Positions 8,011 through 42,378 are shown, counted from the first letter of the stretch. The stretch: DNA of 64,000 nucleotides from Chryseobacterium sp. (GCF_031277615.1 NZ_JAITMC010000038.1); one strand, 5' to 3'. A program made the numbers and translations. Notes: a model not told the origin generated them from the letters alone.

Positions 8011-8036
8011 CATGAATCTAAAAACAAAAGTAAAAT

Positions 8037-9323: not shown

Positions 9324-9343
9324 AAAGAATATGATCTTATAAT

Positions 9344-9380
9344 AAAAAGACCGTTTCACAAACAGTGGAACGGTTTTTTA
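9344..9380 (+). terminator. purA intrinsic terminator
   Basis: ACCGTTTCAC-AAACA-GTGGAACGGT followed by a T-tract. Confidence 0.75.
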
Positions 9381-9397
9381 TTTTGTGCTTGCAGATT

Positions 9398-9635
9398 CAA
9401 CTTAAAAGATCACTTAAAATGAAACTTTTGTAGGTGAATGATTTCCCACAGATCAAACGAATTTCACAGATCTGGTGGAGATTTTTCTCACGCTGATTTT
9501 GCAGATGGCGCTGATTTTATATTTCATCCCAATAAAAATCTTTGATTTTTAAAAACTTTCGTGAACTTCTACGCGCAAACTATTAAACTTAAAGAAAACT
9601 TAAGTGTCAAAAGCTTTTGTGTCTTTATGGTTAAA
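9398..9635 (+). repeat. Family-A repeat (one full unit plus the tail of another)
   Basis: TTTCCCACAGATC...CCCAATAAAAATCTTTGATTTTTAAAAACTTTCGTGAACTTCTA...CTTAAGTGTCAAAA...TGGTTAAA. Confidence 0.85.
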
Positions 9636-9668
9636 GAGTTCTTGTGGCCGATACAGCCTTGATGTGAA

Positions 9669-10757: not shown

Positions 10758-10884
10758 ATATCAATAAATAACAGATAAAAATAAATTATTTCTCAATATA
10801 TCCGGCCTCTTTATCTTTTAAACTTTGTTAATTTTAAAGTTTTCCAATATTTTTTTTACTTTTATCGGATCAGATTAAACCGTT

Positions 10885-11331
10885 ATGAACAAACTGGCCG
10901 CCGCAGCATTAATATTGAACACATTCTGTTTTGCCCAGAATCAGAATCAGGACATAGAAAAACCGATCCGGAACTTATTTCTGGGCATGAAAAATGCAGA
11001 TGCAGACATGATAAAATCAGCTTTTACCGAAACAGCAGTTCTTCAGACCATCACCAGAGACGGAACCGTAAAAACTGAAGAAATCAAAGATTTTATTTCA
11101 TCCGTTGTCAGTATTCCTAAGGGAAGCATCGATGAAAGGATTGAGATTGAAGCCATTCATTCAGATGGGATACTGGCCAGCGTATTTACTCCGTATTCCT
11201 TTTATTACAGGGAAAAATTTACCCATTGCGGAACCAACAGTTTCCAGCTTGTAAAGCAGAAGGATAATACCTGGAAAATTCAATACCTTATTGATACAAG
11301 AAGAAAAGATAACTGCAAGGAAGCAAAATAA
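10885..11331 (+). CDS. Secreted NTF2-like (SnoaL / lumazine-binding-like) protein
   Basis: Signal peptide; ASVFTPYSFY...HCGTNSFQLVK...WKI pattern. Confidence 0.75.
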   Translation: MNKLAAAALILNTFCFAQNQNQDIEKPIRNLFLGMKNADADMIKSAFTETAVLQTITRDGTVKTEEIKDFISSVVSIPKGSIDERIEIEAIHSDGILASVFTPYSFYYREKFTHCGTNSFQLVKQKDNTWKIQYLIDTRRKDNCKEAK

Positions 11332-12254
11332 TGAGAAATAAAAACCTGATCTTCAATTATATTTTTTTAACCAGTCTTGTTATTCTGTTTTTAAATGATC
11401 ATTTCTTTAAATATGAGTTTACCAGCTGGCTGACCGGAAAGCTGTCGGATATTGTGGGAATTATCCTGCTACCGATGTTGCTCACCTATTTATTTCCAAA
11501 GCTGAAACAGCATTCGGTCTATCCCGCCGGGCTTTTATTTGCTTTCTGGAAATCTCCTTTCTCGGAAAGTTTTATCAAACTGTACAATACTTTTTCTTTC
11601 ATTCCGTTACACAGAGTTGTGGATTATACGGACCTTATGGTGCTGATACTGCTTCCTGTGCCTTATGTACTGATGAAGAACAGCGCTCTTATTGATCGTT
11701 TCAGTTTAAAAAAACTGAATCCGTCTCTGGTATTGCTGCCAACAGCATTGATTTTAATGTCCACTTCTCCCGGAAACCGGTATTTTGATTATGTTCCTTA
11801 CACCGGGAATCTGTATTTCAATGATTATTCTTTTGAAGTAAGCCGGTCTAAAGATGAAATACTTTCTGAACTCAAAAAACGGAATATTGTTGTACAGAAA
11901 GATACCGCAAGAATTATTGCCAAACACAAAAGCATGCTTCTGAGCACCGGAAATTTTGAGCAGAAGAATCTTTATAACGACCAGAAGGTCTACCAGGTTT
12001 CGGATGATTCTTTAAAAGCTGCTATTTTCAGAATGGTCCGTTTAGGTAATGAATATAAAATAGACAGCATTCAGCTGGATGACCAGACGGTCTGGAATAT
12101 ACAGTTTGATATGCACAGGATCACAGAAAATAAAGGAACCCAGATTACCGTAAAGTCTGCAAGAATAGGAGAGACCATGAAAGCTCAGGAAGTTGACAGA
12201 AAACTCAGAAAGCTCTACGGAAAACTCCTGAAAGAAAAATTTAAAACATTCTAA
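11331..12254 (+). CDS. Hypothetical membrane protein
   Basis: 307 aa with N-terminal TM region (LNDHFFK...TGKLSD); start and stop overlap both neighbours. Confidence 0.75.
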   Translation: MRNKNLIFNYIFLTSLVILFLNDHFFKYEFTSWLTGKLSDIVGIILLPMLLTYLFPKLKQHSVYPAGLLFAFWKSPFSESFIKLYNTFSFIPLHRVVDYTDLMVLILLPVPYVLMKNSALIDRFSLKKLNPSLVLLPTALILMSTSPGNRYFDYVPYTGNLYFNDYSFEVSRSKDEILSELKKRNIVVQKDTARIIAKHKSMLLSTGNFEQKNLYNDQKVYQVSDDSLKAAIFRMVRLGNEYKIDSIQLDDQTVWNIQFDMHRITENKGTQITVKSARIGETMKAQEVDRKLRKLYGKLLKEKFKTF

Positions 12255-12637
12255 TGAAAATTAAGATTCACCATATTGCCATGATCTGTTCGGATTATGA
12301 AATTTCAAAAAAATTCTATACTGAAGTCTTAGGCTTAAACATCATCCGGGAAGTATACCGTGAAGAAAGAAAATCGTACAAGCTGGACCTTGCCATCGGA
12401 GAAGACTATGTCATTGAACTTTTTTCGTTTCCGGAGCCGCCACAAAGACCTTCCCGACCGGAAGCCTGCGGATTAAGGCATCTGGCTTTTTCTGTAGAGG
12501 ATGTAGGGCATAAAAGAGAGGAACTGGTCTCAAAAGGCCTTACCTGTGAGGAAATCCGTATTGATGAATATACCGGTAAGGAATTTTTCTTTACCCAGGA
12601 TCCTGATCAGCTGCCGCTGGAGTTCTATGAAATGTAA
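12254..12637 (+). CDS. VOC/glyoxalase-family protein (YaeR-like)
   Basis: IHHIAMICSDYEISKKFY, IELFSFP, GLRHLAF, DPDQLPLEFYE. Confidence 0.92.
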   Translation: MKIKIHHIAMICSDYEISKKFYTEVLGLNIIREVYREERKSYKLDLAIGEDYVIELFSFPEPPQRPSRPEACGLRHLAFSVEDVGHKREELVSKGLTCEEIRIDEYTGKEFFFTQDPDQLPLEFYEM

Positions 12638-12639
12638 AA

Positions 12640-13023
12640 TCAGTGCGCGTATCCGGTAAAAAAGCTTACCGCCATAATCGCTAATACAATAGAGGAAATG
12701 ACTACGTATACGTAGTCTTTTTCTTTTAAATACCCGATCAGGGCGAAGATGATCCTCATAAGAGGCGTAAAGATCAGCAGAAGGATTCCTAATTGGATAA
12801 TGGCCATTCCTTCCCCTTTGCATAAGGAATTCCAGAAATGTCCCCATACTTTTTCAGATGAGGTTCCTATTTCAAGACTGGTGTATTTTTTAGGCATTTT
12901 AAAACCTTCCAGAAACAGCTTGATGAAGCCTGCCAGTGAAGTGATCACAGACAAAATAACGCCCAGTCTCAGAAGATTTCCTACCGAACGGTTCAGATCC
13001 ACATCTGTAAAATTCTTTTTCAT
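12640..13023 (-). CDS. DUF1634-like membrane protein
   Basis: GNLLRLGVILS, AIIQLGILLLIFTPLMR; coupled downstream of a TauE gene, its usual partner. Confidence 0.8.
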   Translation of the reverse strand: MKKNFTDVDLNRSVGNLLRLGVILSVITSLAGFIKLFLEGFKMPKKYTSLEIGTSSEKVWGHFWNSLCKGEGMAIIQLGILLLIFTPLMRIIFALIGYLKEKDYVYVVISSIVLAIMAVSFFTGYAH

Positions 13024-13853
13024 TATCTGAAGCTTTTGTTGATCCCGTTATACATCATATATACTGAAAGCACCGTAATCACGATGGCAAAAAATACTTT
13101 TAATTTCTTGGTTTTGGAAACCATCAGGGTTTTTGAACCGATAAAGCTTCCCACGACCACACCAATAAGAACCGGAGCTACGATCACCGGAATGATCTCA
13201 CCTCTCTGAAAATAAATCAGGGCACTGGCTACCGCTGTTACACCAATCATAAAGTTACTGGTGGTTGTAGAAACCTTAAACGGCAGCTTCATCATATTAT
13301 CCATCGCCAGAACCTTCAGAGCCCCAGAACCAATACCTAAAAGACCGGACATGGCCCCTGCAAACATCATCATCAGAAATCCGGGAACGGTATTTCTTGC
13401 CGAATAGCTTTTCAGAACTCCTTTGTCAGGAAAAGTTCCGTACAGTTTCAGCTTGTCTTCAAGACTTCCTTTGATCAGAGGTTCCTGGTGATCCGGCTTT
13501 CCCTTTAGATTTAAAATAACCGTTAAAAGAAGAATGCTGGCAAAGATAATCCCGATCGTATTCGGATTAAGCATCCCCGAAACCAGGGCTCCCATAATGG
13601 CTCCTGCCGTGGTGGCAATCTCCAGAAACATTCCGATCCTCATATTGGTAAAACCTTCTTTCACGAAGGCTACCGCAGCACCGGACGAAGTTCCGATCAC
13701 GGAAATTAAAGAAGCGCCGATGGCATAGTGCATAGGAACGCCGAAACCCAGCGTCAATAAAGGGATGATGATAACTCCTCCTCCTAAACCGGTAAGCGAA
13801 CCCAAAAGCCCCGCCGAAACAGCCCCGAGGAAGAGAATGATGATTTCTGACAT
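13023..13853 (-). CDS. Sulfite exporter TauE/SafE family protein
   Basis: GSLTGLGGGVIIIP, SGLLGIGSG, STTTSNFMIGVTA. Confidence 0.92.
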   Translation of the reverse strand: MSEIIILFLGAVSAGLLGSLTGLGGGVIIIPLLTLGFGVPMHYAIGASLISVIGTSSGAAVAFVKEGFTNMRIGMFLEIATTAGAIMGALVSGMLNPNTIGIIFASILLLTVILNLKGKPDHQEPLIKGSLEDKLKLYGTFPDKGVLKSYSARNTVPGFLMMMFAGAMSGLLGIGSGALKVLAMDNMMKLPFKVSTTTSNFMIGVTAVASALIYFQRGEIIPVIVAPVLIGVVVGSFIGSKTLMVSKTKKLKVFFAIVITVLSVYMMYNGINKSFR

Positions 13854-31436: not shown

Positions 31437-31446
31437 AGAGGAAATC

Positions 31447-32067
31447 TTATTCAGCTTCTTCGCAGTTAACATTATTTTTACATTCGGGAAACTCTTGCTG
31501 ACTGATTATTTTTCCTGCTGGATCAAGATTTTTCCAGATACCACAGGGACATTCTGCACTTCCCTCATAACTTTCATGGGTATATTGTATTGATTTAATT
31601 GTTTTTGTGTTTTCAAAAAACTCTTTAATTTCATGGATCAGTATTTTTTCGCTGCAACTATTTCCATATTGTGTATGAAGCGTTTCTTTTATTAAAGAAC
31701 CTTTTGCATTCCAAAAAAATTCCTTTCCGGTAATGGCTATACATCCCCCGATATTTCCTTCTGTCCACTGATGTACCAACCGGTTGTTTTCATATTCATA
31801 ATGATTCTGCGGATAGTGATTGAAATTGGTTGTTTTACCCGTTAATGATCCTGTTTCAGAATAATACAGTTGTACATTTTTATGGTTTTCATGTTCTGAT
31901 AATAAGAGCTCTTTTACTTTTTTATTGGGATAATAAGAGATCTGTAAAGTATCAACGGAATCTGATACATTTTCTTTGGAGATAGAAGATGCTTTTGTAT
32001 TCTTTTTGCAAGAAAGTAAAATAAGAATTACTAAACTTATTGAAATGTTTATACTATATTTAATCAT
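31447..32067 (-). CDS. Hypothetical lipoprotein with YwqK/MORN-like short repeats; candidate orphan immunity protein
   Basis: LLSC lipobox; YYPNKKVK, YYSETGSL and CPCGIWK...GKIISQ segments; last gene of the effector cassette. Confidence 0.75.
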   Translation of the reverse strand: MIKYSINISISLVILILLSCKKNTKASSISKENVSDSVDTLQISYYPNKKVKELLLSEHENHKNVQLYYSETGSLTGKTTNFNHYPQNHYEYENNRLVHQWTEGNIGGCIAITGKEFFWNAKGSLIKETLHTQYGNSCSEKILIHEIKEFFENTKTIKSIQYTHESYEGSAECPCGIWKNLDPAGKIISQQEFPECKNNVNCEEAE

Positions 32068-32224
32068 TACTGATGTTCTTTATAGCTTTTGGGCTTGTTG
32101 AATAGTTACTTAATTATTAAGTATTTCAAACTAATTTTTATTGAAAATTATAATGACTTCAGTCTGTAAGATCTATTGATTTGCGGTAACTGTATTGATT
32201 TTTCAAGACTAAGAAATCATAGTA

Positions 32225-33112
32225 TTAATGAGAACATTGATTCCGAATTGTATTGGAATTAAATTCCTGGAACGATAATTTTCCAAAATTTTTCTCGGAA
32301 CATAAAATATTATTTTGTGTTCCGTCATTCCAATGTACATTTTCACCATACTTAGAAAGAATAATTTCGTTTAATTTCCCGTCAAATCTAAAAGTAATAT
32401 ATTTATCTGTACTATAATTATCTGGAACCTCATTTGTTAATTCAATGGTGAAAAATTGATTTTTGATAACCAGTTTTTTGAAAACATCTCCGAAATCATT
32501 AGGATATATATTTTCATTAGTTAAAATTCTATATTTTTTATTTTGTTCATTTAATAAAATTAGTATCGGTGCTACTTTCGTATTTGGATTTTGAGGGTCA
32601 ATATCATCATTATTGCCTAAAACAATAACTTTATCTGTAAATGTATCGTTATTTAGATCAGCATCTTTTTCCTCAACAGTAAAATATTTGCTTTTTGCAA
32701 TTGAATCAATAATTTTCTTTGAATCTAAATTCTTTAAGGCTGTATGTTCTTGGTGGTTAAAGAACTTTGGATATTCATTTTTAATATTTATCATATCCAG
32801 AGTTTTATACTTACCATTTTCAAAAAATATTAAATACCAAGGACTTTTAAAACTAGCAATCCTTATAAATTCATTGTTATGTTTAAATCCAATTATTTTA
32901 TTGTCTTCATAGTTTTTATAAGGAGTTTTCAAAGAGTCTAAATAACCAGATGCTTCAGAAAAATAATTATTTATATAATTTGCATTTGTAATTTCAAGAT
33001 TTCCTATAAAAGAACTATCAATGATGTTTTTATTTTCAGCTATATCTTTTTTTTGTTGACATGAAATAGGAATGAAAATGCTTATGAACAGAGATAAAAT
33101 TAAGTTTTTCAT
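32225..33112 (-). CDS. Hypothetical lipoprotein; candidate immunity protein
   Basis: ISC lipobox; DLNNDTFTDKV motif; very AT-rich; 11 nt downstream of the preceding gene. Confidence 0.8.
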   Translation of the reverse strand: MKNLILSLFISIFIPISCQQKKDIAENKNIIDSSFIGNLEITNANYINNYFSEASGYLDSLKTPYKNYEDNKIIGFKHNNEFIRIASFKSPWYLIFFENGKYKTLDMINIKNEYPKFFNHQEHTALKNLDSKKIIDSIAKSKYFTVEEKDADLNNDTFTDKVIVLGNNDDIDPQNPNTKVAPILILLNEQNKKYRILTNENIYPNDFGDVFKKLVIKNQFFTIELTNEVPDNYSTDKYITFRFDGKLNEIILSKYGENVHWNDGTQNNILCSEKNFGKLSFQEFNSNTIRNQCSH

Positions 33113-33123
33113 TTGTATTTTCT

Positions 33124-33969
33124 TTATGGTGTAGATATTCTTACAACAGATCCGTTATGATATTCTCTTATTTTCTCAACAGGACCATTAGGAGAAATAT
33201 TCCATTCTTTATTTCTTAGGCCGTTATTATAATCACCATCCATCCATATGGAGGTATTATATTCAAAAGAGTATCTTTTTTCTTCCCAATGACCATTTTT
33301 TAAATGATTTCTAACCTCACCTTTTTCCTGATATTCATATGTATTGCTCTCATTCTTGTCCCAATTTTTATTTACTTTTTCATTATTTTTTATAAAATAG
33401 TCCAAAAACATATTTTTATCGATTAAATATTGATAGCGTTTAGATTCTTTTTTGCTTTTCTCTAAAACGATATTTAAAATATTGGTTTTGTCAACATTAG
33501 AAAATCTTTTATAAAGTTCTTCGGAGTATAAATTTTCATAAACAACTATTGAAGATTGATCATTGATAGCTGCATCTAAATTCTTTGAGACAAGTAAAAT
33601 AGCTTCATACTTAGCATCCTCATACTTTATTTTAATACAGAATGAATTGAAACTCTGATTATTAATGATATAATCTTTATAAGAATAAAATTTGATAAGA
33701 TTTTCATTTTCAGCAAGAAATGCATCCCACATATAAGGCCTTTCAAAATCCCTTTCGAGTGCCTTTTTATAAATTATTACAAGTTTTTCCTTTGTTGTAT
33801 TAAGAATTTCTTTTCCAACCAATGCTTCATCTATTGATATGAAATTAGGGTTGTTTGGCTTATTTTGAGATATATTATTATCTAGTGAAATATCAGAAAA
33901 TTTTTCTTTCTGTTCACCTTTACAGCAGTTAATTATTAATATAATAATTAATAAAAAAAGATTTTTCAT
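33124..33969 (-). CDS. Hypothetical lipoprotein; candidate cognate immunity protein
   Basis: INCC lipobox; C-terminal KGEVRNHLKNGHW...GDYNNGLRNKEW repeats; starts 5 nt after the effector stop; very AT-rich. Confidence 0.8.
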   Translation of the reverse strand: MKNLFLLIIILIINCCKGEQKEKFSDISLDNNISQNKPNNPNFISIDEALVGKEILNTTKEKLVIIYKKALERDFERPYMWDAFLAENENLIKFYSYKDYIINNQSFNSFCIKIKYEDAKYEAILLVSKNLDAAINDQSSIVVYENLYSEELYKRFSNVDKTNILNIVLEKSKKESKRYQYLIDKNMFLDYFIKNNEKVNKNWDKNESNTYEYQEKGEVRNHLKNGHWEEKRYSFEYNTSIWMDGDYNNGLRNKEWNISPNGPVEKIREYHNGSVVRISTP

Positions 33970-33974
33970 GAATT

Positions 33975-36671
33975 TTATAATTGTTTTAATTTTGGTGTGA
34001 AAGTTTGGACATGTAAGTGATCATGATGATCTTCAAACTTAATTGCATGATTTAATATTTTTCCATTATATTTCCATGATAAGATACCTTTCCAACCATA
34101 TTTGTAAAGTGCATCATTGAAATTATTTTGTCGGTTTTCATCCATACCTTTCCAACCGCAAGGATCTCCTTTTTCATCATCTAAGTTAAGATGAACTTTC
34201 CTACCTGATTTGTCTTTTCTTAAATATCTTAGATCACCATTCATACCATTTTTATGAGATTTACTTCCTCCAATAGATTCACCTCTTTCATTACTAAAGC
34301 CATTGAAAGTATAATCTTCATAACTACAATCTAGCATGGCCCCTAGTAATGCAGCTAAGGAAACATCATTCATATAATAACGATTGGTGTTTATGTCTAA
34401 CGTAAATTTAATTGGACCATTTTTATAATTTTTTAAGGATCGAATATCAATTAAATATACATTATTTCCTTTTATTCGGTCTTTATAAAGATCACCATAA
34501 ATATTTTTAATTTTATTTAATTTATACTTACCTAGAGTATGAATTTTTCCTGTTTTGTCATGATAAAAGTATTCGGAAACTTCTCTTTTTTCATTCTGTA
34601 TTTTATAATTTATTTCTCCGGTTGAAGCCATTATATGAAATTGTATATCAGCATTTGATACATTGGAAGGTATTGCAATAGAACTTTTACATCTATCGGT
34701 TTCTAAAATAAGTTTTATTTTATTTAATATTTCTGTTTTTGCTACTAAATCTAACGTTGTGCCATGAACTAATCTGGTGACTTCTTTAAAATCTCCTTGT
34801 CTTGCAACCTCATTAATATCTTTTTCCGATCCATCTTTTAATAGGACACCATATTTCCAAAACCATCCTGCAGATCTTACCATTAAATCTAAGTCATTTA
34901 ACAATAAATCGGGATTTGATATTAAATCCTTACTAACATATTTTCCAAATCTTCTATAACCTTTTTTTCTCGTTATTTGTATTAAGCCTCGACCTCTGAA
35001 TTTATACCCATCACCTGATAATTCGTTTCCATTTTCAGCAATATTTCTGTATACATAATTTCCTAGCTTTTCAGGATCTCTAAAGTATAATTTAGGAATA
35101 CTATATAAATTTGGGTGGCTATCTTTTTTCCAATAGGTATGAAGAGCTTGCTCTGAAGTATAATATAGATTTTCATCTATTCGCGAAAAGTAACCAGTTT
35201 CTTTTGTTATTTGCGCTAAGAAAAAAGCTTTTTTTATACATGTATCTATTTTGAATTCAATAAGAGTTTCATTTAAGGCATTAATAAATTGTTGAATAGT
35301 TGTTGATGAAAGATTATTTTTTCCAGAAGTAAATAATTTCCTTACGTCTGGATATATTTTAGTAAATTCACTTAATGTAATTGATTTTTTACAGTTGCGA
35401 CATTCATTGTTCTTTAGATTCTGTGATTTCTGCATTTTCTCCACTCCCGTCGCACTTCTCACTTTCTCCACTTCCAGAAGCCCTTCCGAAGTTAGTCCAA
35501 ATTTTTGAGACTGAGCAGCAAGGTCTTTGGAAATAATTTCGATAAAATAGTTCTGGCTTTTTGCATCAGGATCCTGGGGAAGAAAGGATATTCCTTTTTT
35601 GAAGGCGCTTTCGGTAATATGAAAGGGTGGGAGAGTGTCACAAAGATCGCCCGGGATCTTAAAGACAGAGCTTCTGTAAATTTCATCATGTGAAGCGGCA
35701 TCATATTCCCAGATTACATATTGTACATGTTTTCCAACCATATTTTTGGAATAGATCCTGACATATACTTTATCGCCAACAGCTACTTGCGAGAGTTCTT
35801 TTCCGGTGCTGTCTACAAATAAGGCTTCTATGATATTGCCGGTAGGATCAGGTTGTTTGGGCGCTTTTCCTGGTCCTATGGGGAATTTTGGGGTGCTTTT
35901 CTGGGGTTGAGGTTTAAGCAGGCTTGGTGGCTGGTCTGTTTTATGATCGGGGTTGTTTACCTGTACATTGGCTTGGCTGGCTCCTTGTATTTTCCCTGAA
36001 TAGCTGGCAGTCACGTAATATTCATGGCTGGCTCCCTCATCCTGATCTCCTTTCATTGTAAAGGCATCAGCCATTTTTCTGAGAATGCGTTCATCAGCCA
36101 TCAGGGGAATCGGTACTTCTGCAATCCCTTTAGGGTTTACTCTGGCCTTATAGGTCCGGGGATGAAAGTTATTTTTGTTTACAATAGGATCATGGCCGTG
36201 TCCCGGTGCATCATCTTCCCAGAGATGAAATTCTATTTCTTTGTTGAACATGGCGATACAATGAGCCTGCGCAATAAGGGTATCACGGTAGCCGGCTTTG
36301 TTCACGTTTTTTGAACCTCTGTTAAAAAGAATTACCTTTTCTATTTTGGATACTTTACTGCCTGTCGGAACTAAAGTTAATGTGCCTGTCAATTGCCTGG
36401 TGGCCGGCATTCCAGGTAGTATACCCTGTTGGTTTTCGTAGACTTTCATCTGAAACTCTATCCCCAAGGCCGGCTCTCCAAACCGGTAGCTTACTTTCAC
36501 CCCGGTTTTGGGTGTTCCGGTGATGTCTTTCCAGGTTCCGTTTTTCTGCTTTTTATAAAGATACCACTCATAATGACCTTTTAAACAGCTTAAAAGACCA
36601 GAGGGCGTTACTTCATAGTGGTATGTTGTTCCCGTTAAGGGATTTTGATGACCAATAATATTTCCTGTCAT
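33975..36671 (-). CDS. Putative polymorphic antibacterial effector: conserved N-terminal region + GH19 lysozyme-like domain + LAS/M15-type Zn peptidase
   Basis: No signal peptide. GH19 motifs FLAQITKETG, GDGYKFRGRGLIQITR, NPDLL, SAGWFW, VTRLVHG. LAS motifs SHKNGMNGD (H-x6-D) and HHDHLH (HxH). Confidence 0.82.
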   Translation of the reverse strand: MTGNIIGHQNPLTGTTYHYEVTPSGLLSCLKGHYEWYLYKKQKNGTWKDITGTPKTGVKVSYRFGEPALGIEFQMKVYENQQGILPGMPATRQLTGTLTLVPTGSKVSKIEKVILFNRGSKNVNKAGYRDTLIAQAHCIAMFNKEIEFHLWEDDAPGHGHDPIVNKNNFHPRTYKARVNPKGIAEVPIPLMADERILRKMADAFTMKGDQDEGASHEYYVTASYSGKIQGASQANVQVNNPDHKTDQPPSLLKPQPQKSTPKFPIGPGKAPKQPDPTGNIIEALFVDSTGKELSQVAVGDKVYVRIYSKNMVGKHVQYVIWEYDAASHDEIYRSSVFKIPGDLCDTLPPFHITESAFKKGISFLPQDPDAKSQNYFIEIISKDLAAQSQKFGLTSEGLLEVEKVRSATGVEKMQKSQNLKNNECRNCKKSITLSEFTKIYPDVRKLFTSGKNNLSSTTIQQFINALNETLIEFKIDTCIKKAFFLAQITKETGYFSRIDENLYYTSEQALHTYWKKDSHPNLYSIPKLYFRDPEKLGNYVYRNIAENGNELSGDGYKFRGRGLIQITRKKGYRRFGKYVSKDLISNPDLLLNDLDLMVRSAGWFWKYGVLLKDGSEKDINEVARQGDFKEVTRLVHGTTLDLVAKTEILNKIKLILETDRCKSSIAIPSNVSNADIQFHIMASTGEINYKIQNEKREVSEYFYHDKTGKIHTLGKYKLNKIKNIYGDLYKDRIKGNNVYLIDIRSLKNYKNGPIKFTLDINTNRYYMNDVSLAALLGAMLDCSYEDYTFNGFSNERGESIGGSKSHKNGMNGDLRYLRKDKSGRKVHLNLDDEKGDPCGWKGMDENRQNNFNDALYKYGWKGILSWKYNGKILNHAIKFEDHHDHLHVQTFTPKLKQL

Positions 36672-36674
36672 TGT

Positions 36675-37493
36675 TTAAGTGTAATAAAGTTCGTCTGTTC
36701 CGTGTATATTTTCTTTGAATTCATCAAAATCTACCAGAGGATTGTAAATCTGCTGTTCATGGGTATGGGATTTAACCACCTGATTTTTTCCGATTTCACT
36801 CTGCTGTCCATGTTTCAGGATGGTGATTTTTCCTCCTGTACTGCACATCAGTTCAGAAATTTCCGTAAGGCAGCTTTTTCCCATAACTTTTACCTTTTCA
36901 TAAGGTTTCTGCCATTTTCCGGTAGGAGCATAAGTGCAAGGAAGATAGCCTCCTGCAGAGGGTTTTAGCTTACACTGTCCGAAAGGCCGGGCTTCGGGAT
37001 CAAACTGAAGATCATCTTCTGTAACGGCAAGATAGTCTTCCTGTCCGTCGGCATCGTTCCAATAGTGTTTCTGATGGCTTGTGACCTTGAATTTCGGAAA
37101 TGCAAAACCTTGGTTACACTGTACAATTCCTTTTTGGATCACAAAATATTTTCCTTCATGAGCATCGGAGCCTTTATTTTGCTCCTGATCATGTAATTTT
37201 TTAGAATTGCTTTTCTCTTTCTCTAGTTGTTCATGTCTTTGCATATTTGTACCCGAGGAAGCTTCCGTTTGTCCCTGATATCTGTGATCATCAGAAATGT
37301 TGTTGACTTCATCGGCTATCAGCAGAGGATCTTCTGGTATAAGGATTGTTTTTCCCGGGATAGGTTGCTGCATAATGTCCTCCGGAGGACAGTGAAGGTT
37401 ATGGTAGGTTTTCAGAATACCTTCATTTTTCAGTTTAAACTGTCTTGCAAGAGAGCTGAAGGTATCACCCTGCTGGATGATATAATTTTTCAT
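36675..37493 (-). CDS. LysM + DUF4280 (PAAR-like spike) protein
   Basis: N-terminal YIIQQGDTFSSLARQF (LysM). C-terminal VQCNQG...PFGQCKLKP...YLPC...KW...SELMCSTGGKITILKHGQ (DUF4280). Confidence 0.88.
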   Translation of the reverse strand: MKNYIIQQGDTFSSLARQFKLKNEGILKTYHNLHCPPEDIMQQPIPGKTILIPEDPLLIADEVNNISDDHRYQGQTEASSGTNMQRHEQLEKEKSNSKKLHDQEQNKGSDAHEGKYFVIQKGIVQCNQGFAFPKFKVTSHQKHYWNDADGQEDYLAVTEDDLQFDPEARPFGQCKLKPSAGGYLPCTYAPTGKWQKPYEKVKVMGKSCLTEISELMCSTGGKITILKHGQQSEIGKNQVVKSHTHEQQIYNPLVDFDEFKENIHGTDELYYT

Positions 37494-37494
37494 A

Positions 37495-38523
37495 TTATTC
37501 CTGTATTAGTGTAATTGTATGTCGGTGAATAAGATCTTTTCCTTCCCGCAACGATACAGACGCCTTTAGCTGAAGAAGGTTTTTACTTTGTTGATGGGTG
37601 GTATATTCCAGTAAAATATTTCCGGATGCTGGTTCTGCAGGAAGTTCAGGCAGCCTTATTCCGCGTATGATTTCCTGTAAGCTGTATGGTTCTGCAAGAC
37701 TACCGTTTAAAGTTGTCTTTACAAGGCGGTCGTCTGAAATTTCCTGTTCTATATTCATTTCGCACTGTACGGGAAAAGAATTTTTATAAAAATAAAATGT
37801 TTCTTTCCAGGCTTTTGTTTGATGGAAACGGTTCAGTTCAGGGAATAGTGACTGAAAAAGAAGCGTACTCTGAAACTGCTGCAGGACAAAAATTTCATCT
37901 ATAATACTTCTTTCAAACGAATTCATATAAATTTCGGCAATTTCACCCGTAAAGAAATCCTCGATCTGCTGACGCCTTTCTGTAAAGGCGGTCATGAGCT
38001 TTTTATGATCAGCGAGTCCTGTAATGTTACCCTGATCATGAATGATGAAGCAGAGCGGCATAATACTGTTCATAGATGCGATGGATAGACTGCTTACCTT
38101 ATCCTCCACGATCTGCTCATCTGATTTAAAATCCTTCTGAACATAAGAGAGGATCAACTGGTTTTTATAATGATCTTTGTTCAGGTTCAGGTCAACAGTA
38201 TAGCTGATGCTGATGTTGGGTTCATACAGGCTTTCGATGTTTTCACTGACCTTATAGCTGGAAGCATAAAAAGAATCCAGCAGCAGGGAAGAAGGTAGCC
38301 TGTTTTTTCTTTCTTCCCGTTGCTGTTTTTCCGATTTAAAAACAGCAGGAACAAGGATACGCCTGATTCCGGTTAAGCTTTTCAGCCGGATAATATCTGT
38401 TTTCGGGCAATGGGAATTATGGAAAAGCTTCAGTTCTTCATCAGTCATTCCCAAACGGGAAGATATCGACTTTAAGGTGTCTCCGGAACGGACCCGGTAT
38501 TCTAAAATAGTATTTTCCATCAA
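37495..38523 (-). CDS. LysM-domain protein, cytoplasmic; candidate adaptor
   Basis: YRVRSGDTLKSISSRLG LysM; no signal peptide; 1 nt from the DUF4280 gene. Confidence 0.82.
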   Translation of the reverse strand: MMENTILEYRVRSGDTLKSISSRLGMTDEELKLFHNSHCPKTDIIRLKSLTGIRRILVPAVFKSEKQQREERKNRLPSSLLLDSFYASSYKVSENIESLYEPNISISYTVDLNLNKDHYKNQLILSYVQKDFKSDEQIVEDKVSSLSIASMNSIMPLCFIIHDQGNITGLADHKKLMTAFTERRQQIEDFFTGEIAEIYMNSFERSIIDEIFVLQQFQSTLLFQSLFPELNRFHQTKAWKETFYFYKNSFPVQCEMNIEQEISDDRLVKTTLNGSLAEPYSLQEIIRGIRLPELPAEPASGNILLEYTTHQQSKNLLQLKASVSLREGKDLIHRHTITLIQE

Positions 38524-38666
38524 ATGTGAGTTATATTATAAAGTTATGAAAAACTTTAAAATAAATCCTTTTTTAATGTTTTATTTTTAAGAATACTGGT
38601 ATTTTTTAATTAATTAAAGTTTTTTATTGTTTTTCGTTGAAAAATATTCAATTATTGAAAAAGAAA

Positions 38667-40925
38667 TTATTTAGTCTCATCCACTTTTTCTGCCTTATAT
38701 TTTTCTATAACCTTGCGCTGTTCTTTGGCTACATCATAAATCAGTTCCAGAATATCGTGAATGTTTTTAAGTTCCGTTAAATGCGAAATTTTATCTGGAT
38801 CTCTGCGGTCGATAATGTCGTTTTCCTCAATTTCGGATTTTCTTTTCAGAAGCATGTCCTCGATGGATGAGTCTTCCGGTTCCAGGCGGCTTTCCATTTT
38901 CAGGGTTTCATTTACGTCGTTGCCATTGAGCAGGGTGGAAGTCTGCTGCATTTCAGCTTCAATTTTACGGCTCCAGCTTTCGGCATCTATCTCAGGATAT
39001 TTCTCTTTGCTTTTCGAGTATTGGGATAGGGAAGCGGTATAGGCGGTGATCAGGTGTGAGGTGGCCACAAACTGATGGACAACTTCCAGTTTTTTCTGCT
39101 GGTTTTTGGGATCCGAGATCATCCTCTGGAAATTATCCGAAAGGTTGGCCAGGGAAATGATCGCGTTTTTACGTTTTACCTTGTAATCTTCAATATCGAA
39201 ATCTCCTTCCAGAAATTTAGACATGACACTCTGAAAGTAGATAAGGTTGTCGGCTGCGGATTTTTTCATCAGCTCCAGGTTCTGCGTATGCTCCCAAACC
39301 GGAAGTACAATATAAGATACTGCAAAAGCGATAATTCCGGCAATAGCCGTATCCAGAACCCTGTCTTTGAATATGATATCCACTTTCCCCGGATTCAGGA
39401 AGTTGAAACTCAGGAATACATAGATCGTCATAAACAGAACCGCCCAGAAATACCTTCCTTTCAGAAAGCTGAAACACATGATCATGCTGATCAGCAGAAT
39501 GGCAAACAGAACACTGTTGATATGGATGAAATGAAGAACGGCATAGGCAATGGCCGCCCCGGTTACCGTTCCGTACAGACGGAGAAGGTTCCGTTGTTTG
39601 GTGATGGAGTAGGCGGGTTTTAAGATCGCAGTAATGGTAATTAATATCCAGTATGTATGTCCCAGCTCCAGAAAGTCGAACATGGAGAAAAGATATCCCA
39701 GCAGCAGGGCTATGGTAATCCTGATGGCATGACGGAAATGGGAAGACGATAACGAAATATTATTCTTTAAGACCTGTGCATTAAGCTTGGGCTCATTCGG
39801 CATGAATTTTTTCAGATCCAGTCCGGTAGATAAACTTTTTGCGAGCTTTACATTTTGGGAAAATACCTTATAGATTTCATTGATCTCTTTGGTGATTTCA
39901 TTAATACGCATCAGGATCTGGCGCAGGATCATGAAGTTTTCCAGGTTATCAGGAGAAAGCTGCTTATTTCTGAGTTCAAAATAATGGTAATTAAGGTTTT
40001 TCAGTTCCAACTCCAGATTAACCATCGGCCGGGCTCTGGTACCACTCTGAAGGGCAATCCCGATATTGGTGATCTCCTCGGCCAGAAGGTTGAGGTAATC
40101 GTGGATATTCACCAGGATCATGCTGTCTTCAAAACTCTGCTGCAGCTTTTGATAATCACTTTCAGAAGTCATCAGCTTTTCATGAAGGTCCATTGAATTC
40201 AGAAACATCAGCATCAGTAAGCGGCTGGTTGTCGTAGATTCGTTAACGATTGTTCTGGTTTTGAAAACAGTTTCCCGGGTATCTTCCTGAAGATTTTTTA
40301 TTTCAATCTGCTTGGCAATCACCTGGGTTGTCAGTTTATTAAAATCCGGATTTTTCTGATAATAGCTGGCTTTGATCTTTAAAAACTCTGCCAATTGAAG
40401 ATAATTTTCCCCGATCATCTGCCCGGCAAGTTTATAAGGGCGGATTGTTGTTACAACGAGGAATATCATTAAAAACCAGATACATCCGCTGGCGAATATC
40501 AGTAAGCTTTTAAAAATATCAGCCCCCGTAAGGTGGCCGTCGATGAAGATGGCGAGAACGACGAGCGATAGCGAGCCCACAGCTGCCAGCCTCTGCCCGT
40601 AAACACCGATCAGGGAGAAAAACATCCCGAATACAATGATTTCAAGCAGGACCAGTGCTTTGACGTTCATTACCAGACTGGCTATCAGCGCTACAAATAC
40701 AAAGCAGCAGATGGCAAAAGCCAGGGCATTTCTTCTCCGGATAAAAGGTCCGGGTTGGTCTGTAAGCGCTACAAAGCTGGTTCCGAGAGGGAAGAGGAAG
40801 TATTCCTTCAGAATTCCGAAATGTGCAAGAACCAAACAGGGCAGAACGGTAGCCAGTGTAATCCTGATGGCAGAATATACATATTGGCTGGTCACAAATT
40901 TTTTTAGCTCTGCTGAGTAGTTCAT
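38667..40925 (-). CDS. FUSC-family (YccS/YhfK-like) membrane protein
   Basis: ALTDQPGP, FRHAIRITIA, HTYWILITITAILKP, QRNLLRLYGT. Confidence 0.9.
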   Translation of the reverse strand: MNYSAELKKFVTSQYVYSAIRITLATVLPCLVLAHFGILKEYFLFPLGTSFVALTDQPGPFIRRRNALAFAICCFVFVALIASLVMNVKALVLLEIIVFGMFFSLIGVYGQRLAAVGSLSLVVLAIFIDGHLTGADIFKSLLIFASGCIWFLMIFLVVTTIRPYKLAGQMIGENYLQLAEFLKIKASYYQKNPDFNKLTTQVIAKQIEIKNLQEDTRETVFKTRTIVNESTTTSRLLMLMFLNSMDLHEKLMTSESDYQKLQQSFEDSMILVNIHDYLNLLAEEITNIGIALQSGTRARPMVNLELELKNLNYHYFELRNKQLSPDNLENFMILRQILMRINEITKEINEIYKVFSQNVKLAKSLSTGLDLKKFMPNEPKLNAQVLKNNISLSSSHFRHAIRITIALLLGYLFSMFDFLELGHTYWILITITAILKPAYSITKQRNLLRLYGTVTGAAIAYAVLHFIHINSVLFAILLISMIMCFSFLKGRYFWAVLFMTIYVFLSFNFLNPGKVDIIFKDRVLDTAIAGIIAFAVSYIVLPVWEHTQNLELMKKSAADNLIYFQSVMSKFLEGDFDIEDYKVKRKNAIISLANLSDNFQRMISDPKNQQKKLEVVHQFVATSHLITAYTASLSQYSKSKEKYPEIDAESWSRKIEAEMQQTSTLLNGNDVNETLKMESRLEPEDSSIEDMLLKRKSEIEENDIIDRRDPDKISHLTELKNIHDILELIYDVAKEQRKVIEKYKAEKVDETK

Positions 40926-41214: not shown

Positions 41215-42378
41215 TTAATAATCTACATTAGACGTCTCTTCACCAATGTTCCAGGTAAGTCCGAAACGAAGGGTATTATCTAAAGCAGTATTGATTTTTG
41301 ACATATTGATCAGGTAAGAAAGATCAAGTCCGAAAGAACGGTATTTTAATCCTACACCGGCTGTTGCAAATTGTCTTGCTCCCTGGGTTTCACTTTCAGA
41401 AAAATAACCGGCTCTCACAGCAAAAGCATTGTCATATGAATATTCCAAAGCGCCACTGTACATGATGCTGTTCTTATTTTTGAACGATTTGCTGATCCCT
41501 GCAATAGGACCTACGTTTGGAATCTCATATCTCGGCTGTCTTGTATTAGGATCTATTCCTACAAATTCAGCCTGTGGAACAAGAATCTTTGAACCCTCGA
41601 AGCTGATTCCGATTTTATTCATATCATCAAGAAACATATCGTATCCTACCCCTATTCTTGCTGTCGCAGGAAGGTAGTTTCTGGTATCATCATTTCCTGA
41701 ATAATCCAGCTTAGGACCTATGTTTTTAATGGTAAAACCTGCATTTACCTTACCTTCATAGCCTCCAAAACTTGAAAATCTAGGTGAGGTATAGTATCCT
41801 GATATATCTACCGCAAAAGAGTTGGCTGGCTTAAGAGTGGTATCTGTGTTGAAACCTCCGGCTAAATCTGAACGGATGAATCTACCGGTAACCGCTCCTG
41901 AGAATGAATCTGAAAGCTTCAGGGCGTAGGCTACGTCAATGGAGAATTCGTTAGGCTTGGAAGTTCCCATTGAGGCTACATCAGAACCTACTAATTGTGT
42001 AAGATCCACTTCCCCCATATTGAAATAATAAATACTGGCAGAAAGGGTAGATCTTTCATCCTGTCCTAAGAATTTATGGAAAGATGCGTAAAGTAAAAAT
42101 ACATCATTGGTAAGCTTACTCATATAAGGAGTATAACTAAGACCTACGGAAGAACTTGTTCTGCTAAAAGGATATTTCGCCGGATTCCAGAATTGCGAGA
42201 ATGCATCAGATGAGGTGGCTACCCCCTGATCTCCCATCCCTCCAGACCTTGCATCTGGTGCAATCCTTAGAAATGGGGCTCCGGTTAATACGGGGTTTAT
42301 CTTGCCCAAGTCCTGTGCATAGCCTAGAAAACCAGCGCTTAAACCAAATCCCAAAAGCAGTTTTGTAGTTAAATTCAT
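41215..42378 (-). CDS. porV: T9SS outer-membrane shuttle PorV
   Basis: TGAPFLRIAPDARSGGMGDQG, FWNPAKY, YFNMGE, NALDNTLRF; immediately downstream of porU. Confidence 0.95.
   Translation of the reverse strand: MNLTTKLLLGFGLSAGFLGYAQDLGKINPVLTGAPFLRIAPDARSGGMGDQGVATSSDAFSQFWNPAKYPFSRTSSSVGLSYTPYMSKLTNDVFLLYASFHKFLGQDERSTLSASIYYFNMGEVDLTQLVGSDVASMGTSKPNEFSIDVAYALKLSDSFSGAVTGRFIRSDLAGGFNTDTTLKPANSFAVDISGYYTSPRFSSFGGYEGKVNAGFTIKNIGPKLDYSGNDDTRNYLPATARIGVGYDMFLDDMNKIGISFEGSKILVPQAEFVGIDPNTRQPRYEIPNVGPIAGISKSFKNKNSIMYSGALEYSYDNAFAVRAGYFSESETQGARQFATAGVGLKYRSFGLDLSYLINMSKINTALDNTLRFGLTWNIGEETSNVDY

What the first reader, a model, noticed from the sequence alone, without database searches (positions are those of the whole stretch)
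31447..38523. Stand-alone LysM / LysM-DUF4280 / effector / triple-lipoprotein antibacterial cassette
Seen: six co-oriented genes, the first five separated by 1, 3, 5 and 11 nt and the sixth by 157 nt, between housekeeping PPTase and FUSC genes. Order is LysM protein, LysM+DUF4280 protein, 898-aa signal-less effector, three lipoproteins. Known: DUF4280 is a PAAR-like spike domain of T6SS/contractile systems, and effector-immunity pairs are usually adjacent. Inference: an orphan delivery module loaded onto a Bacteroidota T6SS(iii) or another contractile system encoded elsewhere. No vgrG, hcp or tss gene is in the window. I know of no characterised example of the LysM-LysM/PAAR-effector layout.
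Basis: partly seen in the sequence, partly recalled or inferred. Interest (0 to 1): 0.82.

Follow-up and report, generated by a model that had tools for sequence, protein, structure and literature searches.

The report
Orphan T6SS adaptor–tip–toxin–immunity cassette
This is a 7.2-kb insertion in a Chryseobacterium genome that encodes a loading adaptor, a spike-tip protein, a cell-wall-degrading toxin and candidate immunity lipoproteins for the bacterium's type VI secretion system; it is a LysM-decorated version of a cargo module recently characterised in Bacteroides, so it is informative but not a new kind of system.

Summary
Six co-oriented minus-strand genes have gaps of 1, 3, 5, 11 and 157 nt and lie between a PPTase gene and a FUSC-like gene. 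These two genes abut stop-to-stop in 14 of 15 congeners, so the cassette is a species-specific 7.2-kb insertion.

- Gene 1 is a LysM domain fused to a BtapC/Ate3-family T6SSiii adaptor (profile E 7.8e-12 and fold E 7e-10 to PDB 9JG8 chain A).
- Gene 2 is a LysM-like N-terminus plus a four-cysteine DUF4280 PAAR-like tip.
- Gene 3 has N-terminal beta-sandwich domains resembling BtaeB-NTD, a GH19 endolysin-type domain, and a C-terminal domain with an LAS-like HxxGxxxD…HxH motif (unconfirmed).
- The toxin half plus the lipoprotein genes have 24-31% GC against about 40% for the delivery half, so the cassette is a recombinant polymorphic toxin.
- lip281 travels with this toxin in two other species.

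The genome encodes a T6SSiii and no phage-type sheath. It holds five or six paralogous modules, two of them next to hcp-vgrG.

The adaptor, PAAR-like tip and effector triad was characterised in B. fragilis in 2025-26, and LysM loading proteins were characterised in Proteobacteria in 2023. The double LysM decoration is the untested twist.

The parts
31437..38666 (-). The whole inserted cassette, lying between the convergent stop codons of the PPTase and FUSC-like genes.
   Evidence: PPTase and FUSC are stop-to-stop (0-16 nt apart) in 14 of 15 same-genus genomes, and none of them has a cassette gene there. There are no significant flanking repeats and no integrase.
37495..38523 (-). Gene 1: LysM + BtapC/Ate3-family T6SSiii adaptor (342 aa from the TTG start, or 341 aa from the ATG at 38520). 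It has no signal peptide.
   Evidence: The family profile hits PDB 9jg8_A 'Bacteroides T6SS Adapter Protein C' at E 7.8e-12. Foldseek of the AF2 model gives 9jg8_A at E 7.4e-10, TM 0.74. The family is present in 78 of 81 Chryseobacterium genomes and has 668 representatives at E<=1e-10.
38347..38508 (-). LysM domain of gene 1 (model residues 5-58, beta-alpha-alpha-beta).
   Evidence: Pfam LysM scores 20.8 bits against a cut-off of 20.9. Profile positions 5-30 hit the LysM domains of LytE at E 2e-8 and of other solved LysM proteins. DSSP of the model gives E5-9, H16-23, H27-37, E54-58.
37501..38259 (-). Adaptor barrel of gene 1 (residues 88-340): 11 strands plus a helical insert.
   Evidence: DSSP of the model shows 11 strands. 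This matches the '11-strand open beta-barrel' described for Ate3 (PMC13402684).
36675..37493 (-). Gene 2: LysM-like N-terminus + DUF4280 PAAR-like spike tip (272 aa). It has no signal peptide.
   Evidence: Pfam DUF4280 E 2.3e-19 over residues 118-230. PDB 9jg8_B (the DUF4280-effector fusion BtpeA) E 3.6e-5.
37335..37484 (-). LysM-like N-terminal extension of gene 2 (residues 4-53).
   Evidence: Pfam LysM scores 17.3 bits, below the cut-off. It is 36.5% identical over 52 aa to the LysM of gene 1. The extension is kept in 13 of 13 orthologues of 272-283 aa. It is absent from the 161-197-aa DUF4280 proteins of other modules.
36804..37142 (-). DUF4280 PAAR-like domain (residues 118-230) with four invariant cysteines: C126, C174, C186 and C217.
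   Evidence: All four Cys are conserved in all 9 DUF4280 paralogues of the genome. Four conserved Cys are the hallmark of the family (PMC5014421).
33975..36671 (-). Gene 3: 898-aa polymorphic cargo effector. It has no signal peptide.
   Evidence: 171 homologues were found. The N-terminal ~420 aa are shared at 65-71% identity with proteins that carry M23, GH108, GH19 or amidase C-termini. AF2 model pLDDT is 75.6.
35412..36671 (-). Effector delivery region (residues 1-420): beta-sandwich domains 1-245 and 280-391, with Pro-rich disordered linkers. GC is 43%.
   Evidence: Model secondary structure. Foldseek gives 9jdh 'BtaeB-NTD' at E 4.4e-10 and 9jg8_C at E 3.7e-8, TM 0.50. The region is 70-77% identical to the N-termini of effectors in other Chryseobacterium cassettes.
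34689..35384 (-). GH19 endolysin-type (lysozyme-like) domain, residues 430-661, with Glu491 and Glu500.
   Evidence: phmmer to PDB 9eoi at E 8e-22. The profile hits the SPN1S endolysin 4ok7 at E 1.8e-29. Foldseek gives 9eoi at TM 0.82 and the T6SS effector TseP (8xcl). E491 and E500 are nearly invariant across 41 homologues.
33978..34646 (-). C-terminal domain (residues 676-898): a beta subdomain plus an alpha/beta subdomain with invariant H806-x2-G809-x3-D813 and H885-x-H887. It is a candidate LAS/M15-type zinc peptidase.
   Evidence: The invariant columns come from an 8-sequence alignment. Model pLDDT in this region is about 88. There is no HMM or PDB sequence support, and hhalign to a genuine M15_4 protein aligns only the motif (E 0.82). 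One BFVD hit is annotated 'Peptidase M15A C-terminal' (rank 15).
33124..33969 (-). lip281: lipoprotein and most likely cognate immunity protein.
   Evidence: A homologue lies immediately downstream of the orthologous toxin in C. rhizoplanae (62% identity) and in F. johnsoniae (38.5% identity). It has a lipobox N-terminus. GC is 26%.
32225..33112 (-). lip295: lipoprotein, probably an orphan or additional immunity gene.
   Evidence: A homologue at 68% identity is the first gene after a different 863-aa effector inside a core T6SSiii cluster of another Chryseobacterium. Another homologue stands alone in Mucilaginibacter, with Rhs genes a few kb away.
31447..32067 (-). lip206: lipoprotein of unknown role, with a weak MORN_2 repeat. 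It is separated from lip295 by a 157-nt gap.
   Evidence: Only 1 of 80 congeners has a match, and that match is partial (first 44 aa). It lies about 9 kb downstream of a homologous cassette. Pfam MORN_2 is below the cut-off.

Best explanation
The cassette is an orphan cargo module of the genome's Bacteroidota-type T6SS (T6SSiii). It was acquired as a 7.2-kb insertion.

Inferred mechanism, by analogy with the B. fragilis BtapC/BtpeA/BtaeB and Ate3/Pte3/Bte3 complexes:
- In the producer's cytoplasm, the gene-1 adaptor (an open beta-barrel with an N-terminal LysM domain) joins the DUF4280 PAAR-like tip (gene 2) to the beta-sandwich N-terminal region of the 898-aa effector (gene 3).
- This complex is mounted on one of the roughly 10 VgrG spikes encoded elsewhere in the genome.
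- Sheath contraction carries the tip and effector into a neighbouring cell's periplasm.
- There the GH19 lysozyme-like domain, and probably a C-terminal zinc peptidase, cut peptidoglycan.
- Sister cells are protected by a periplasm-facing lipoprotein. lip281 is the cognate candidate. lip295 and lip206 are probably orphan or extra immunity genes.

Shown here by computation: the domain identities, the homology to the characterised parts, the synteny with T6SS genes, the presence of a T6SSiii, the insertion, and the chimeric toxin-immunity half.

Not shown: complex formation, secretion, killing and immunity. The role of the two LysM domains is also unknown. They may be protein-protein loading modules, as reported for proteobacterial vgrG-locus LysM proteins, or they may bind peptidoglycan in the prey.
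For: Domains.

Adaptor: profile E 7.8e-12 to 'Bacteroides T6SS Adapter Protein C'; Foldseek E 7.4e-10, TM 0.74; 11-strand barrel as described for Ate3.

PAAR-like tip: four invariant Cys.

Effector N-terminal domain resembles BtaeB-NTD (9jdh E 4.4e-10; 9jg8_C E 3.7e-8).

T6SSiii present and no phage-type sheath.

Synteny:
- hcp-vgrG followed by the adaptor in two paralogous loci of this genome.
- tssE-adaptor-DUF4280-effector-lip295 homologue inside a core cluster of another Chryseobacterium.
- The 75%-identical effector plus a lip281 homologue next to tssBC in C. rhizoplanae.
- The triad is conserved in 13 of 13 close loci and 4 of 4 more distant loci.

Polymorphic-toxin signature: a conserved N-terminus with variable M23, GH108, GH19 or amidase C-termini. 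The homology breakpoint at about residue 424 coincides with a GC drop from 43% to 28%.

Insertion.

Experimental precedent: PMC13402684 and PMC13699834; PMC10673891; PMC5014421.
Against:
- No vgrG lies in the cassette, and the cognate VgrG is unidentified.
- The match of the effector N-terminal domain to BtaeB is fold-level only. No sequence-profile hit was found, and the E-values are close to those for generic beta-sandwich arrays such as complement MG domains.
- The LAS peptidase assignment rests on a motif only.
- The LysM calls are at or below Pfam's threshold.
- The T6SSiii core genes are scattered over at least four contigs, and TssE, TssG and TssK were not checked.
Confidence: 0.85

Rival explanations
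1. The cassette is a silent or decaying relic. Its main present value would be the immunity lipoproteins (acquired defence), with the delivery genes no longer used.
For: The location is orphan, with no vgrG nearby. lip295 and lip206 look like orphan immunity genes. The genome already has 5-6 similar modules. There are no expression data.
Against: All six ORFs are intact, and the first five are packed 1-11 nt apart. The catalytic and structural hallmarks are kept: E491/E500, the four Cys and the HxxGxxxD…HxH motif. Orphan triads of the same layout are common elsewhere.
Confidence: 0.07
2. The module loads a different contractile system (eCIS, tailocin or prophage tail) rather than the T6SSiii. 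LysM proteins are core baseplate parts of those systems.
For: LysM proteins are structural in eCIS and phage baseplates and absent from the canonical T6SS core (PMC10673891). PAAR-like tips also occur in eCIS (general knowledge).
Against: The genome has no Phage_sheath_1 match, and none of the cassette proteins matches a PHROG family. Homologous modules are embedded in T6SSiii clusters or sit next to hcp, vgrG or tssBC. The adaptor is homologous to the T6SS adaptor BtapC.
Confidence: 0.03
3. The genes form an endogenous cell-wall remodelling or autolysin operon. Under this reading the LysM proteins and a GH19/peptidase enzyme act on the cell's own peptidoglycan, and the lipoproteins regulate them.
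For: LysM, GH19 and a possible LAS peptidase are all cell-wall-related domains.
Against: None of the three large proteins has a signal peptide, so they cannot reach the producer's own wall. DUF4280 and the BtapC-like barrel have no role in wall metabolism. The cassette is absent from 15 of 15 congeners at this site. The family is a polymorphic toxin family.
Confidence: 0.03

Closest known systems
B. fragilis GA3 T6SSiii cargo complex BtapC (adaptor) / BtpeA (DUF4280 PAAR-like-effector fusion) / BtaeB on VgrG. PDB 9JG8 and 9JDH. Li et al. 2025, Cell Host Microbe 33:1901; the paper is not held and is cited through PMC13699834 and PMC13402684.
   Same: The adaptor barrel is homologous (profile E 7.8e-12; fold E 7e-10). 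The tip is a DUF4280. The large effector has an N-terminal beta-sandwich region of BtaeB-NTD-like fold. The genes are adjacent, and the effectors are antibacterial.
   Different: Here the adaptor and the PAAR-like protein each carry an N-terminal LysM(-like) domain that BtapC (254 aa) lacks. The PAAR-like protein carries no toxin, so there is one toxin protein rather than two co-secreted ones. The module is orphan, outside any T6SS locus. The host belongs to Flavobacteriia rather than Bacteroidia.
B. fragilis Bte3 / Ate3 (adaptor) / Pte3 (DUF4280) module (PMC13402684).
   Same: It is a three-part set: an 11-strand open-barrel adaptor, a stand-alone DUF4280 tip, and an effector with N-terminal beta-sandwich domains followed by a toxin domain. 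Immunity is by a lipoprotein or periplasmic protein. The authors note structural orthologues in Flavobacterium.
   Different: The Bte3 toxin is an open beta-barrel, not a peptidoglycan hydrolase. The gene order differs: effector and immunity genes come first, then the accessory genes. There are no LysM domains. In that system the parts are essential for T6SS firing; this was not tested here.
Stand-alone or fused LysM 'effector-discrimination' proteins of proteobacterial vgrG loci (Ketobacter alkanivorans Kalk_10460; PMC10673891).
   Same: [quoted passage not shown] It was shown to bridge VgrG and effector.
   Different: That work concerns canonical T6SSi with true vgrG linkage. The proteins there are not reported to contain a BtapC-like barrel, and there is no DUF4280 partner.
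Francisella IglG (DUF4280 with an N-terminal extension that binds IglF; PMC5014421).
   Same: It is a DUF4280 PAAR-like tip with four Cys whose N-terminal extension recruits a partner encoded between vgrG and the tip gene. The same paper lists LysM among the domains found fused to DUF4280.
   Different: The IglG extension is a short alpha-helical segment, not LysM. Its targets are eukaryotic cells, and the T6SS subtype is different (T6SSii).
TseP, a dual-function T6SS peptidoglycan hydrolase of Aeromonas (PDB 8XCL), and GH19 phage endolysins (9EOI, 4OK7).
   Same: The fold is a GH19/lysozyme-like catalytic domain with a conserved Glu pair. TseP also combines two wall-cutting activities in one T6SS effector.
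   Different: The delivery domains and the secretion subtype differ. The second domain here is an unclassified HxxGxxxD…HxH domain, not the amidase of TseP.

Membership tests
BtapC/Ate3-type T6SSiii adaptor (gene 1) | Sequence homology to BtapC | tested here: met
   A profile of 9 family members against PDB hits 9jg8_A 'Bacteroides T6SS Adapter Protein C' at E 7.8e-12, profile positions 89-234.
BtapC/Ate3-type T6SSiii adaptor (gene 1) | Open beta-barrel of about 11 strands | tested here: met
   The AF2 model (pLDDT 82, pTM 0.68) has 11 strands in residues 88-340. The top Foldseek hit is 9jg8_A at E 7.4e-10, TM 0.74.
BtapC/Ate3-type T6SSiii adaptor (gene 1) | Encoded next to a DUF4280 PAAR-like gene and a large effector, in or near T6SS loci | tested here: met
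BtapC/Ate3-type T6SSiii adaptor (gene 1) | Binds effector and PAAR-like protein and is required for secretion | not testable with these tools
   Needs co-IP or deletion experiments. No multimer prediction tool was available.
DUF4280 PAAR-like spike tip (gene 2) | Pfam PF14107 above the gathering score | tested here: met
   70.4 bits against a cut-off of 26.3, covering the full length of the model.
DUF4280 PAAR-like spike tip (gene 2) | Four conserved metal-binding cysteines | tested here: met
   C126, C174, C186 and C217 are invariant in 9 of 9 paralogues. The criterion is from PMC5014421.
DUF4280 PAAR-like spike tip (gene 2) | Caps a VgrG trimer | not testable with these tools
   The cognate VgrG among about 10 candidates was not identified.
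LysM domain (N-termini of genes 1 and 2) | Pfam PF01476 at the gathering score and a beta-alpha-alpha-beta fold | tested here: inconclusive
   Gene 1 scores 20.8 bits against 20.9, but its family profile hits solved LysM domains (LytE E 2e-8) and the model has the beta-alpha-alpha-beta fold. Gene 2 scores 17.3 bits, only the first half of the model matches, and it is 36.5% identical to the gene-1 LysM. No model was made for gene 2.
GH19 (endolysin-type) glycoside hydrolase (gene 3, residues 430-661) | Family HMM or solved-structure homology plus the catalytic Glu pair | tested here: met
   Pfam 33.3 bits against 25.5, a partial match. PDB 9eoi at E 8e-22. Profile hit to 4ok7 at E 1.8e-29. Foldseek TM 0.82. 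E491 and E500 are nearly invariant. The statement that a Glu pair about 9 residues apart is catalytic comes from general knowledge of GH19 endolysins.
LAS / M15-type zinc peptidase (gene 3, residues 766-898) | H-x(3-6)-D and H-x-H zinc ligands in an LAS fold, with family HMM support | tested here: inconclusive
   The motif H806xxG809xxxD813 … H885xH887 is invariant. There is no Pfam, NCBIfam or PDB profile hit. hhalign to the genome's own M15_4 protein aligns only the motif (E 0.82). One BFVD hit is annotated M15A.
BtaeB/Bte3-like VgrG-loaded cargo effector (gene 3, residues 1-420) | N-terminal beta-sandwich array homologous to BtaeB-NTD | tested here: inconclusive
   Foldseek gives 9jdh at E 4.4e-10 and 9jg8_C at E 3.7e-8, TM 0.50. 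Generic MG/FN3 arrays score similarly, and no sequence-profile hit was found.
Bacteroidota T6SSiii (host system) | TssB/C sheath, TssD, VgrG, baseplate, and the Bacteroidota-specific TssN/O/R | tested here: met
   TssC E 7e-226, TssB weak, 2 TssO, TssR and a ClpV-like ATPase. 6 TssD. About 10 VgrG. TssF. TssN. TssE, TssG, TssK, TssP and TssQ were not searched for.
Polymorphic toxin-immunity system | Conserved delivery N-terminus, variable toxin C-terminus, and an adjacent cognate immunity gene that travels with the toxin | tested here: met
   with the matching GC break.

The most novel reading that the evidence does not exclude
The two LysM domains, one on the adaptor and one on the PAAR-like tip, form a structural element of the flavobacterial T6SSiii spike complex that has not been described. 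One possibility is that they take the role LysM proteins have in eCIS and phage baseplates. Another is that the tip-borne LysM is injected with the effector and anchors it to prey peptidoglycan. About 130 of the best 150 family representatives carry the LysM N-terminus. If so, the LysM-bearing form would be the usual state of the BtapC/Ate3 adaptor family, and the characterised LysM-less Bacteroides proteins would be the exception.
Probability: 0.3. Interest if true: 0.6.

Novelty: new variant of a known kind. Interest (0 to 1): 0.42.

Why it matters
It extends the recently defined Bacteroides adaptor, PAAR-like tip and effector loading scheme to Flavobacteriia.

It shows that this module is a mobile, self-contained unit. 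It can land between two housekeeping genes and exchange its toxin-immunity half with Flavobacterium-like DNA.

It also defines a large family (at least 668 representatives at 50% clustering) of LysM-fused adaptors for which Pfam-A, NCBIfam and PHROGs returned no family covering the barrel.

This gives a concrete and testable question: what does a cytoplasmic LysM domain do on a T6SS adaptor and on a spike tip?

Practically, the conserved gene-1/gene-2 pair is a good marker for finding orphan T6SSiii effectors and their immunity genes in Bacteroidota genomes.

Tried and rejected
- PF05943 (VipB) found no sheath gene. This was a model-sensitivity problem: the Bacteroidota-specific TssC model PF17541 hits at E 7e-226.
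- PHROGs gave no hit for any cassette protein, so a prophage lysis module was rejected.
- The sigma-70 promoter and intrinsic-terminator scan found no more sites than in shuffled sequence. These consensus models do not cover organisms with other promoter types, so the result was not used.
- LAS peptidase tests all failed to reach significance: Pfam and NCBIfam on the C-terminal piece, a profile of 8 homologues against PDB and Pfam, and hhalign against the genome's own M15_4 protein. The assignment stays at motif level.
- A profile of the effector family against PDB sequences found only GH19 entries and no BtaeB hit.
- A search for direct or inverted repeats at the insertion boundaries gave only a 9-nt AT-rich match, which is chance level. 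No integrase or transposase lies in the insert.
- The primary BtapC paper (Li et al. 2025) is not held and was used only through papers that cite it.

Full report
**Observation**

One search confirms six minus-strand ORFs at the stated coordinates: 342, 272, 898, 281, 295 and 206 aa. The gaps between them are 1, 3, 5, 11 and 157 nt.

Pfam gives:
- DUF4280 in the 272-aa protein (E 2.3e-19, residues 118-230).
- A partial GH19 match in the 898-aa protein (33.3 bits; cut-off 25.5).
- LysM at the very edge of significance in the 342-aa protein (20.8 bits against 20.9).
- LysM below the cut-off in the 272-aa protein (17.3 bits).

The flanking genes are a 4'-phosphopantetheinyl transferase and a FUSC-like membrane protein. 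The three small proteins begin with lipoprotein-type signal peptides. The three large ones have no signal peptide (sequences).

**The cassette is an insertion and a chimera**

The PPTase gene was located in 15 genomes of the same genus, and 12.6 kb around each was fetched.
- In 14 of them the convergent PPTase and FUSC genes end within 0-16 nt of each other. The fifteenth has about 0.8 kb between them.
- None has any cassette gene at this site.
- So the 7.2 kb at 31437-38666 is an insertion specific to this lineage.
- It has no integrase and no meaningful flanking repeats.

Base composition splits the cassette.
- Genes 1 and 2 and codons 1-420 of gene 3 have 40-43% GC, against 39% for the genome.
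- Codons 421-898 have 28% GC, lip281 26%, lip295 24% and lip206 31%.
- The break coincides with a homology break. Residues 1-~420 are 65-77% identical to the N-termini of many Chryseobacterium proteins whose C-termini are M23, GH108, GH19 or amidase domains.
- Residues 424-898 are 64% identical to the C-terminus of a Flavobacterium johnsoniae protein whose N-terminus is only 29% identical.
- This is the signature of a polymorphic toxin whose toxin-immunity half has been exchanged.

**Gene 1 is an adaptor with a LysM domain at its N-terminus**

- The 342-aa protein belongs to a family found in 78 of 81 Chryseobacterium genomes, often in several copies. The best non-self identity is 57%.
- A profile of nine members finds 668 representatives at E<=1e-10 among 1.84 billion clustered proteins. 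About 130 of the best 150 match from the LysM N-terminus through the C-terminal domain.
- The AlphaFold2 model (pLDDT 82, pTM 0.68) has a beta-alpha-alpha-beta LysM fold at residues 5-58. Residues 88-340 form an 11-stranded sheet with a helical insert.
- Its best structural match in the PDB is chain A of 9JG8, 'cargo complex (BtpeA-BtaeB-BtapC) bound to the VgrG spike' (E 7.4e-10, TM 0.74).
- Independently, the sequence profile hits the same chain, named 'Bacteroides T6SS Adapter Protein C', at E 7.8e-12. Its N-terminal positions hit solved LysM domains (LytE, E 2e-8).

The literature held here describes the following.
- BtapC is an adaptor that mediates co-secretion of the PAAR-like-effector fusion BtpeA and the effector BtaeB in B. 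fragilis (PMC13699834).
[quoted passage not shown] Together with the DUF4280 protein Pte3 it is required for secretion of Bte3. Structural orthologues exist in Flavobacterium (PMC13402684).
- Neither paper mentions LysM.

**Gene 2 is a PAAR-like tip**

- The DUF4280 domain has all four cysteines that define the family (PMC5014421). They are invariant in the nine DUF4280 paralogues of this genome.
- It matches the DUF4280 N-terminus of 9jg8_B at E 3.6e-5.
- Its first ~53 residues are 36.5% identical to the LysM of gene 1.
- This extension is kept in all 13 orthologous 272-283-aa proteins examined.
- The DUF4280 proteins of other modules are 161-197 aa and lack it.
- Rigard et al. already listed LysM among the domains found fused to DUF4280.

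**Gene 3 is the cargo toxin**

The model (pLDDT 75.6) shows these parts:
- Beta-sandwich domains at residues 1-245 and 280-391, separated by disordered Pro-rich linkers.
- A helical domain at residues 430-661.
- A beta plus alpha/beta region at residues 676-898.

The helical domain is a GH19 endolysin-type fold.
- phmmer E 8e-22 to 9EOI; profile E 1.8e-29 to the SPN1S endolysin.
- Foldseek TM 0.82 to 9EOI, and a hit to the T6SS effector TseP.
- Glu491 and Glu500 are nearly invariant.

The N-terminal region matches 'BtaeB-NTD' (9JDH, E 4.4e-10) and chain C of the 9JG8 complex (E 3.7e-8, TM 0.50). I treat this as suggestive only. Generic beta-sandwich arrays score in the same range, and no sequence-level match exists.

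The C-terminal domain keeps an invariant HxxGxxxD … HxH pattern, which is typical of LAS/M15 zinc peptidases. Every profile test failed to reach significance. The only extra hint is one phage protein annotated M15A. The second enzymatic activity therefore remains a hypothesis.

**Immunity candidates**

- lip281 homologues lie directly downstream of the orthologous toxin in C. rhizoplanae (toxin 75% identical, lipoprotein 62%) and in F. johnsoniae (toxin C-terminus 64%, lipoprotein 38.5%). This makes lip281 the best cognate immunity candidate.
- lip295 has a 68%-identical homologue in the immunity position behind a different 863-aa effector. It also has a stand-alone homologue in Mucilaginibacter. 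It is probably an orphan or additional immunity gene.
- lip206 is almost unique.

**Link to a T6SS**

The genome encodes:
- TssC (PF17541, E 7e-226), a weak TssB, two TssO, TssR and a ClpV-like ATPase.
- TssF and TssN.
- Six TssD and about ten VgrG-like genes.
- No phage-type sheath.

It carries 11 DUF4280 hits and five or six modules of the same design.
- One runs hcp, vgrG, two genes, adaptor, lipoprotein, DUF4280, 947-aa effector.
- In another the adaptor homologue follows vgrG after 3 nt.

Elsewhere:
- A Chryseobacterium core cluster reads TssN-TssK-TssO-…-TssE-adaptor-DUF4280-863-aa effector-lip295 homologue-…-TssC-TssD.
- In C. rhizoplanae the near-orthologous effector and immunity gene sit beside tssBC.
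- Three distant family representatives again show adaptor, DUF4280, 780-940-aa protein. One lies just downstream of a vgrG island.

**Mechanism, and what is inferred**

By homology with the B. fragilis complexes, the adaptor should tie the effector's N-terminal region to the DUF4280 tip on a VgrG spike. The toxin should then act on prey peptidoglycan in the periplasm, and a lipoprotein should protect kin.

The LysM domains are cytoplasmic in the producer.
- Work on proteobacterial vgrG loci showed that a stand-alone LysM protein is needed for VgrG-effector binding. It also linked LysM to lysozyme-like, NlpD and NlpC/P60 toxins (PMC10673891). A loading role is therefore the default reading.
- A role in binding prey peptidoglycan after injection of the tip is not excluded.

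**Comparison and novelty**

The parts and their order place the cassette in the BtapC/Ate3 + DUF4280 + beta-sandwich-effector class of T6SSiii cargo modules. The differences are:
- The LysM domains on both accessory proteins.
- A toxin-free tip.
- The orphan position of the cassette.
- The GH19-plus-HxxGxxxD…HxH toxin.

I rate it a new variant of a known kind.

Noticed in passing
window 41215-42378 (-): The gene after FUSC is a PorV homologue, a type IX secretion component (Pfam PorV, E 1.3e-74). It is conserved next to FUSC in the congeners and is unrelated to the cassette.
   Followed up: partly
own genome: C41:33044-34872, C30:139366-143891 and 164366-166861, C1:~222000-224000, C45:75683-76519: The T6SSiii core genes are scattered over at least four contigs: tssBC; tssO/O/PKD/tssR and clpV; tssF; tssN. 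They are not in one cluster. In another Chryseobacterium (L064) many of these genes are contiguous.
   Followed up: partly
own genome C39:73464-73697: A 77-aa ORF is 38% identical to the first 72 residues (the LysM part) of gene 1. It lies about 2 kb upstream of another adaptor-DUF4280 pair, with two lipoprotein genes in between. It may be the remnant of a displaced module.
   Followed up: no
L058 13351-13497 (F. johnsoniae locus): A 48-aa ORF with a weak Peptidase_M15_4 hit sits between the lip281 homologue and a further 264-aa gene. It looks like the leftover tip of a displaced toxin followed by its own immunity gene.
   Followed up: no
L060 (C. rhizoplanae) 7323-13560: The 75%-identical effector and its lip281-like gene are inserted between a tssB-like/tssC/152-aa gene block and mutY. 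There is no adaptor or DUF4280 gene next to them. In this genome the same tssBC-159-aa-mutY site (C41) is empty.
   Followed up: partly
own genome C30:172301-173440 and C30:174809-175768: Two proteins with several predicted transmembrane stretches carry only the C-terminal half of DUF4280 (E 1e-7 and 2e-4). The first directly follows vgrG and an adaptor homologue. They may be split or degenerate PAAR-like membrane toxins.
   Followed up: no
window 38667-38700 (3' end of FUSC): The last 6-8 codons of the FUSC gene differ from those of the congeners. In the congeners the gene runs up to, or overlaps, the PPTase stop codon. The insertion therefore replaced the extreme 3' end of FUSC.
   Followed up: partly
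L041, L042 (other Chryseobacterium loci): In two loci the adaptor (50% identity) and the LysM-DUF4280 protein (64-68%) are followed by an effector whose N-terminus is only 25-28% identical to gene 3. The same accessory pair can therefore be paired with rather different effector N-terminal regions.
   Followed up: no
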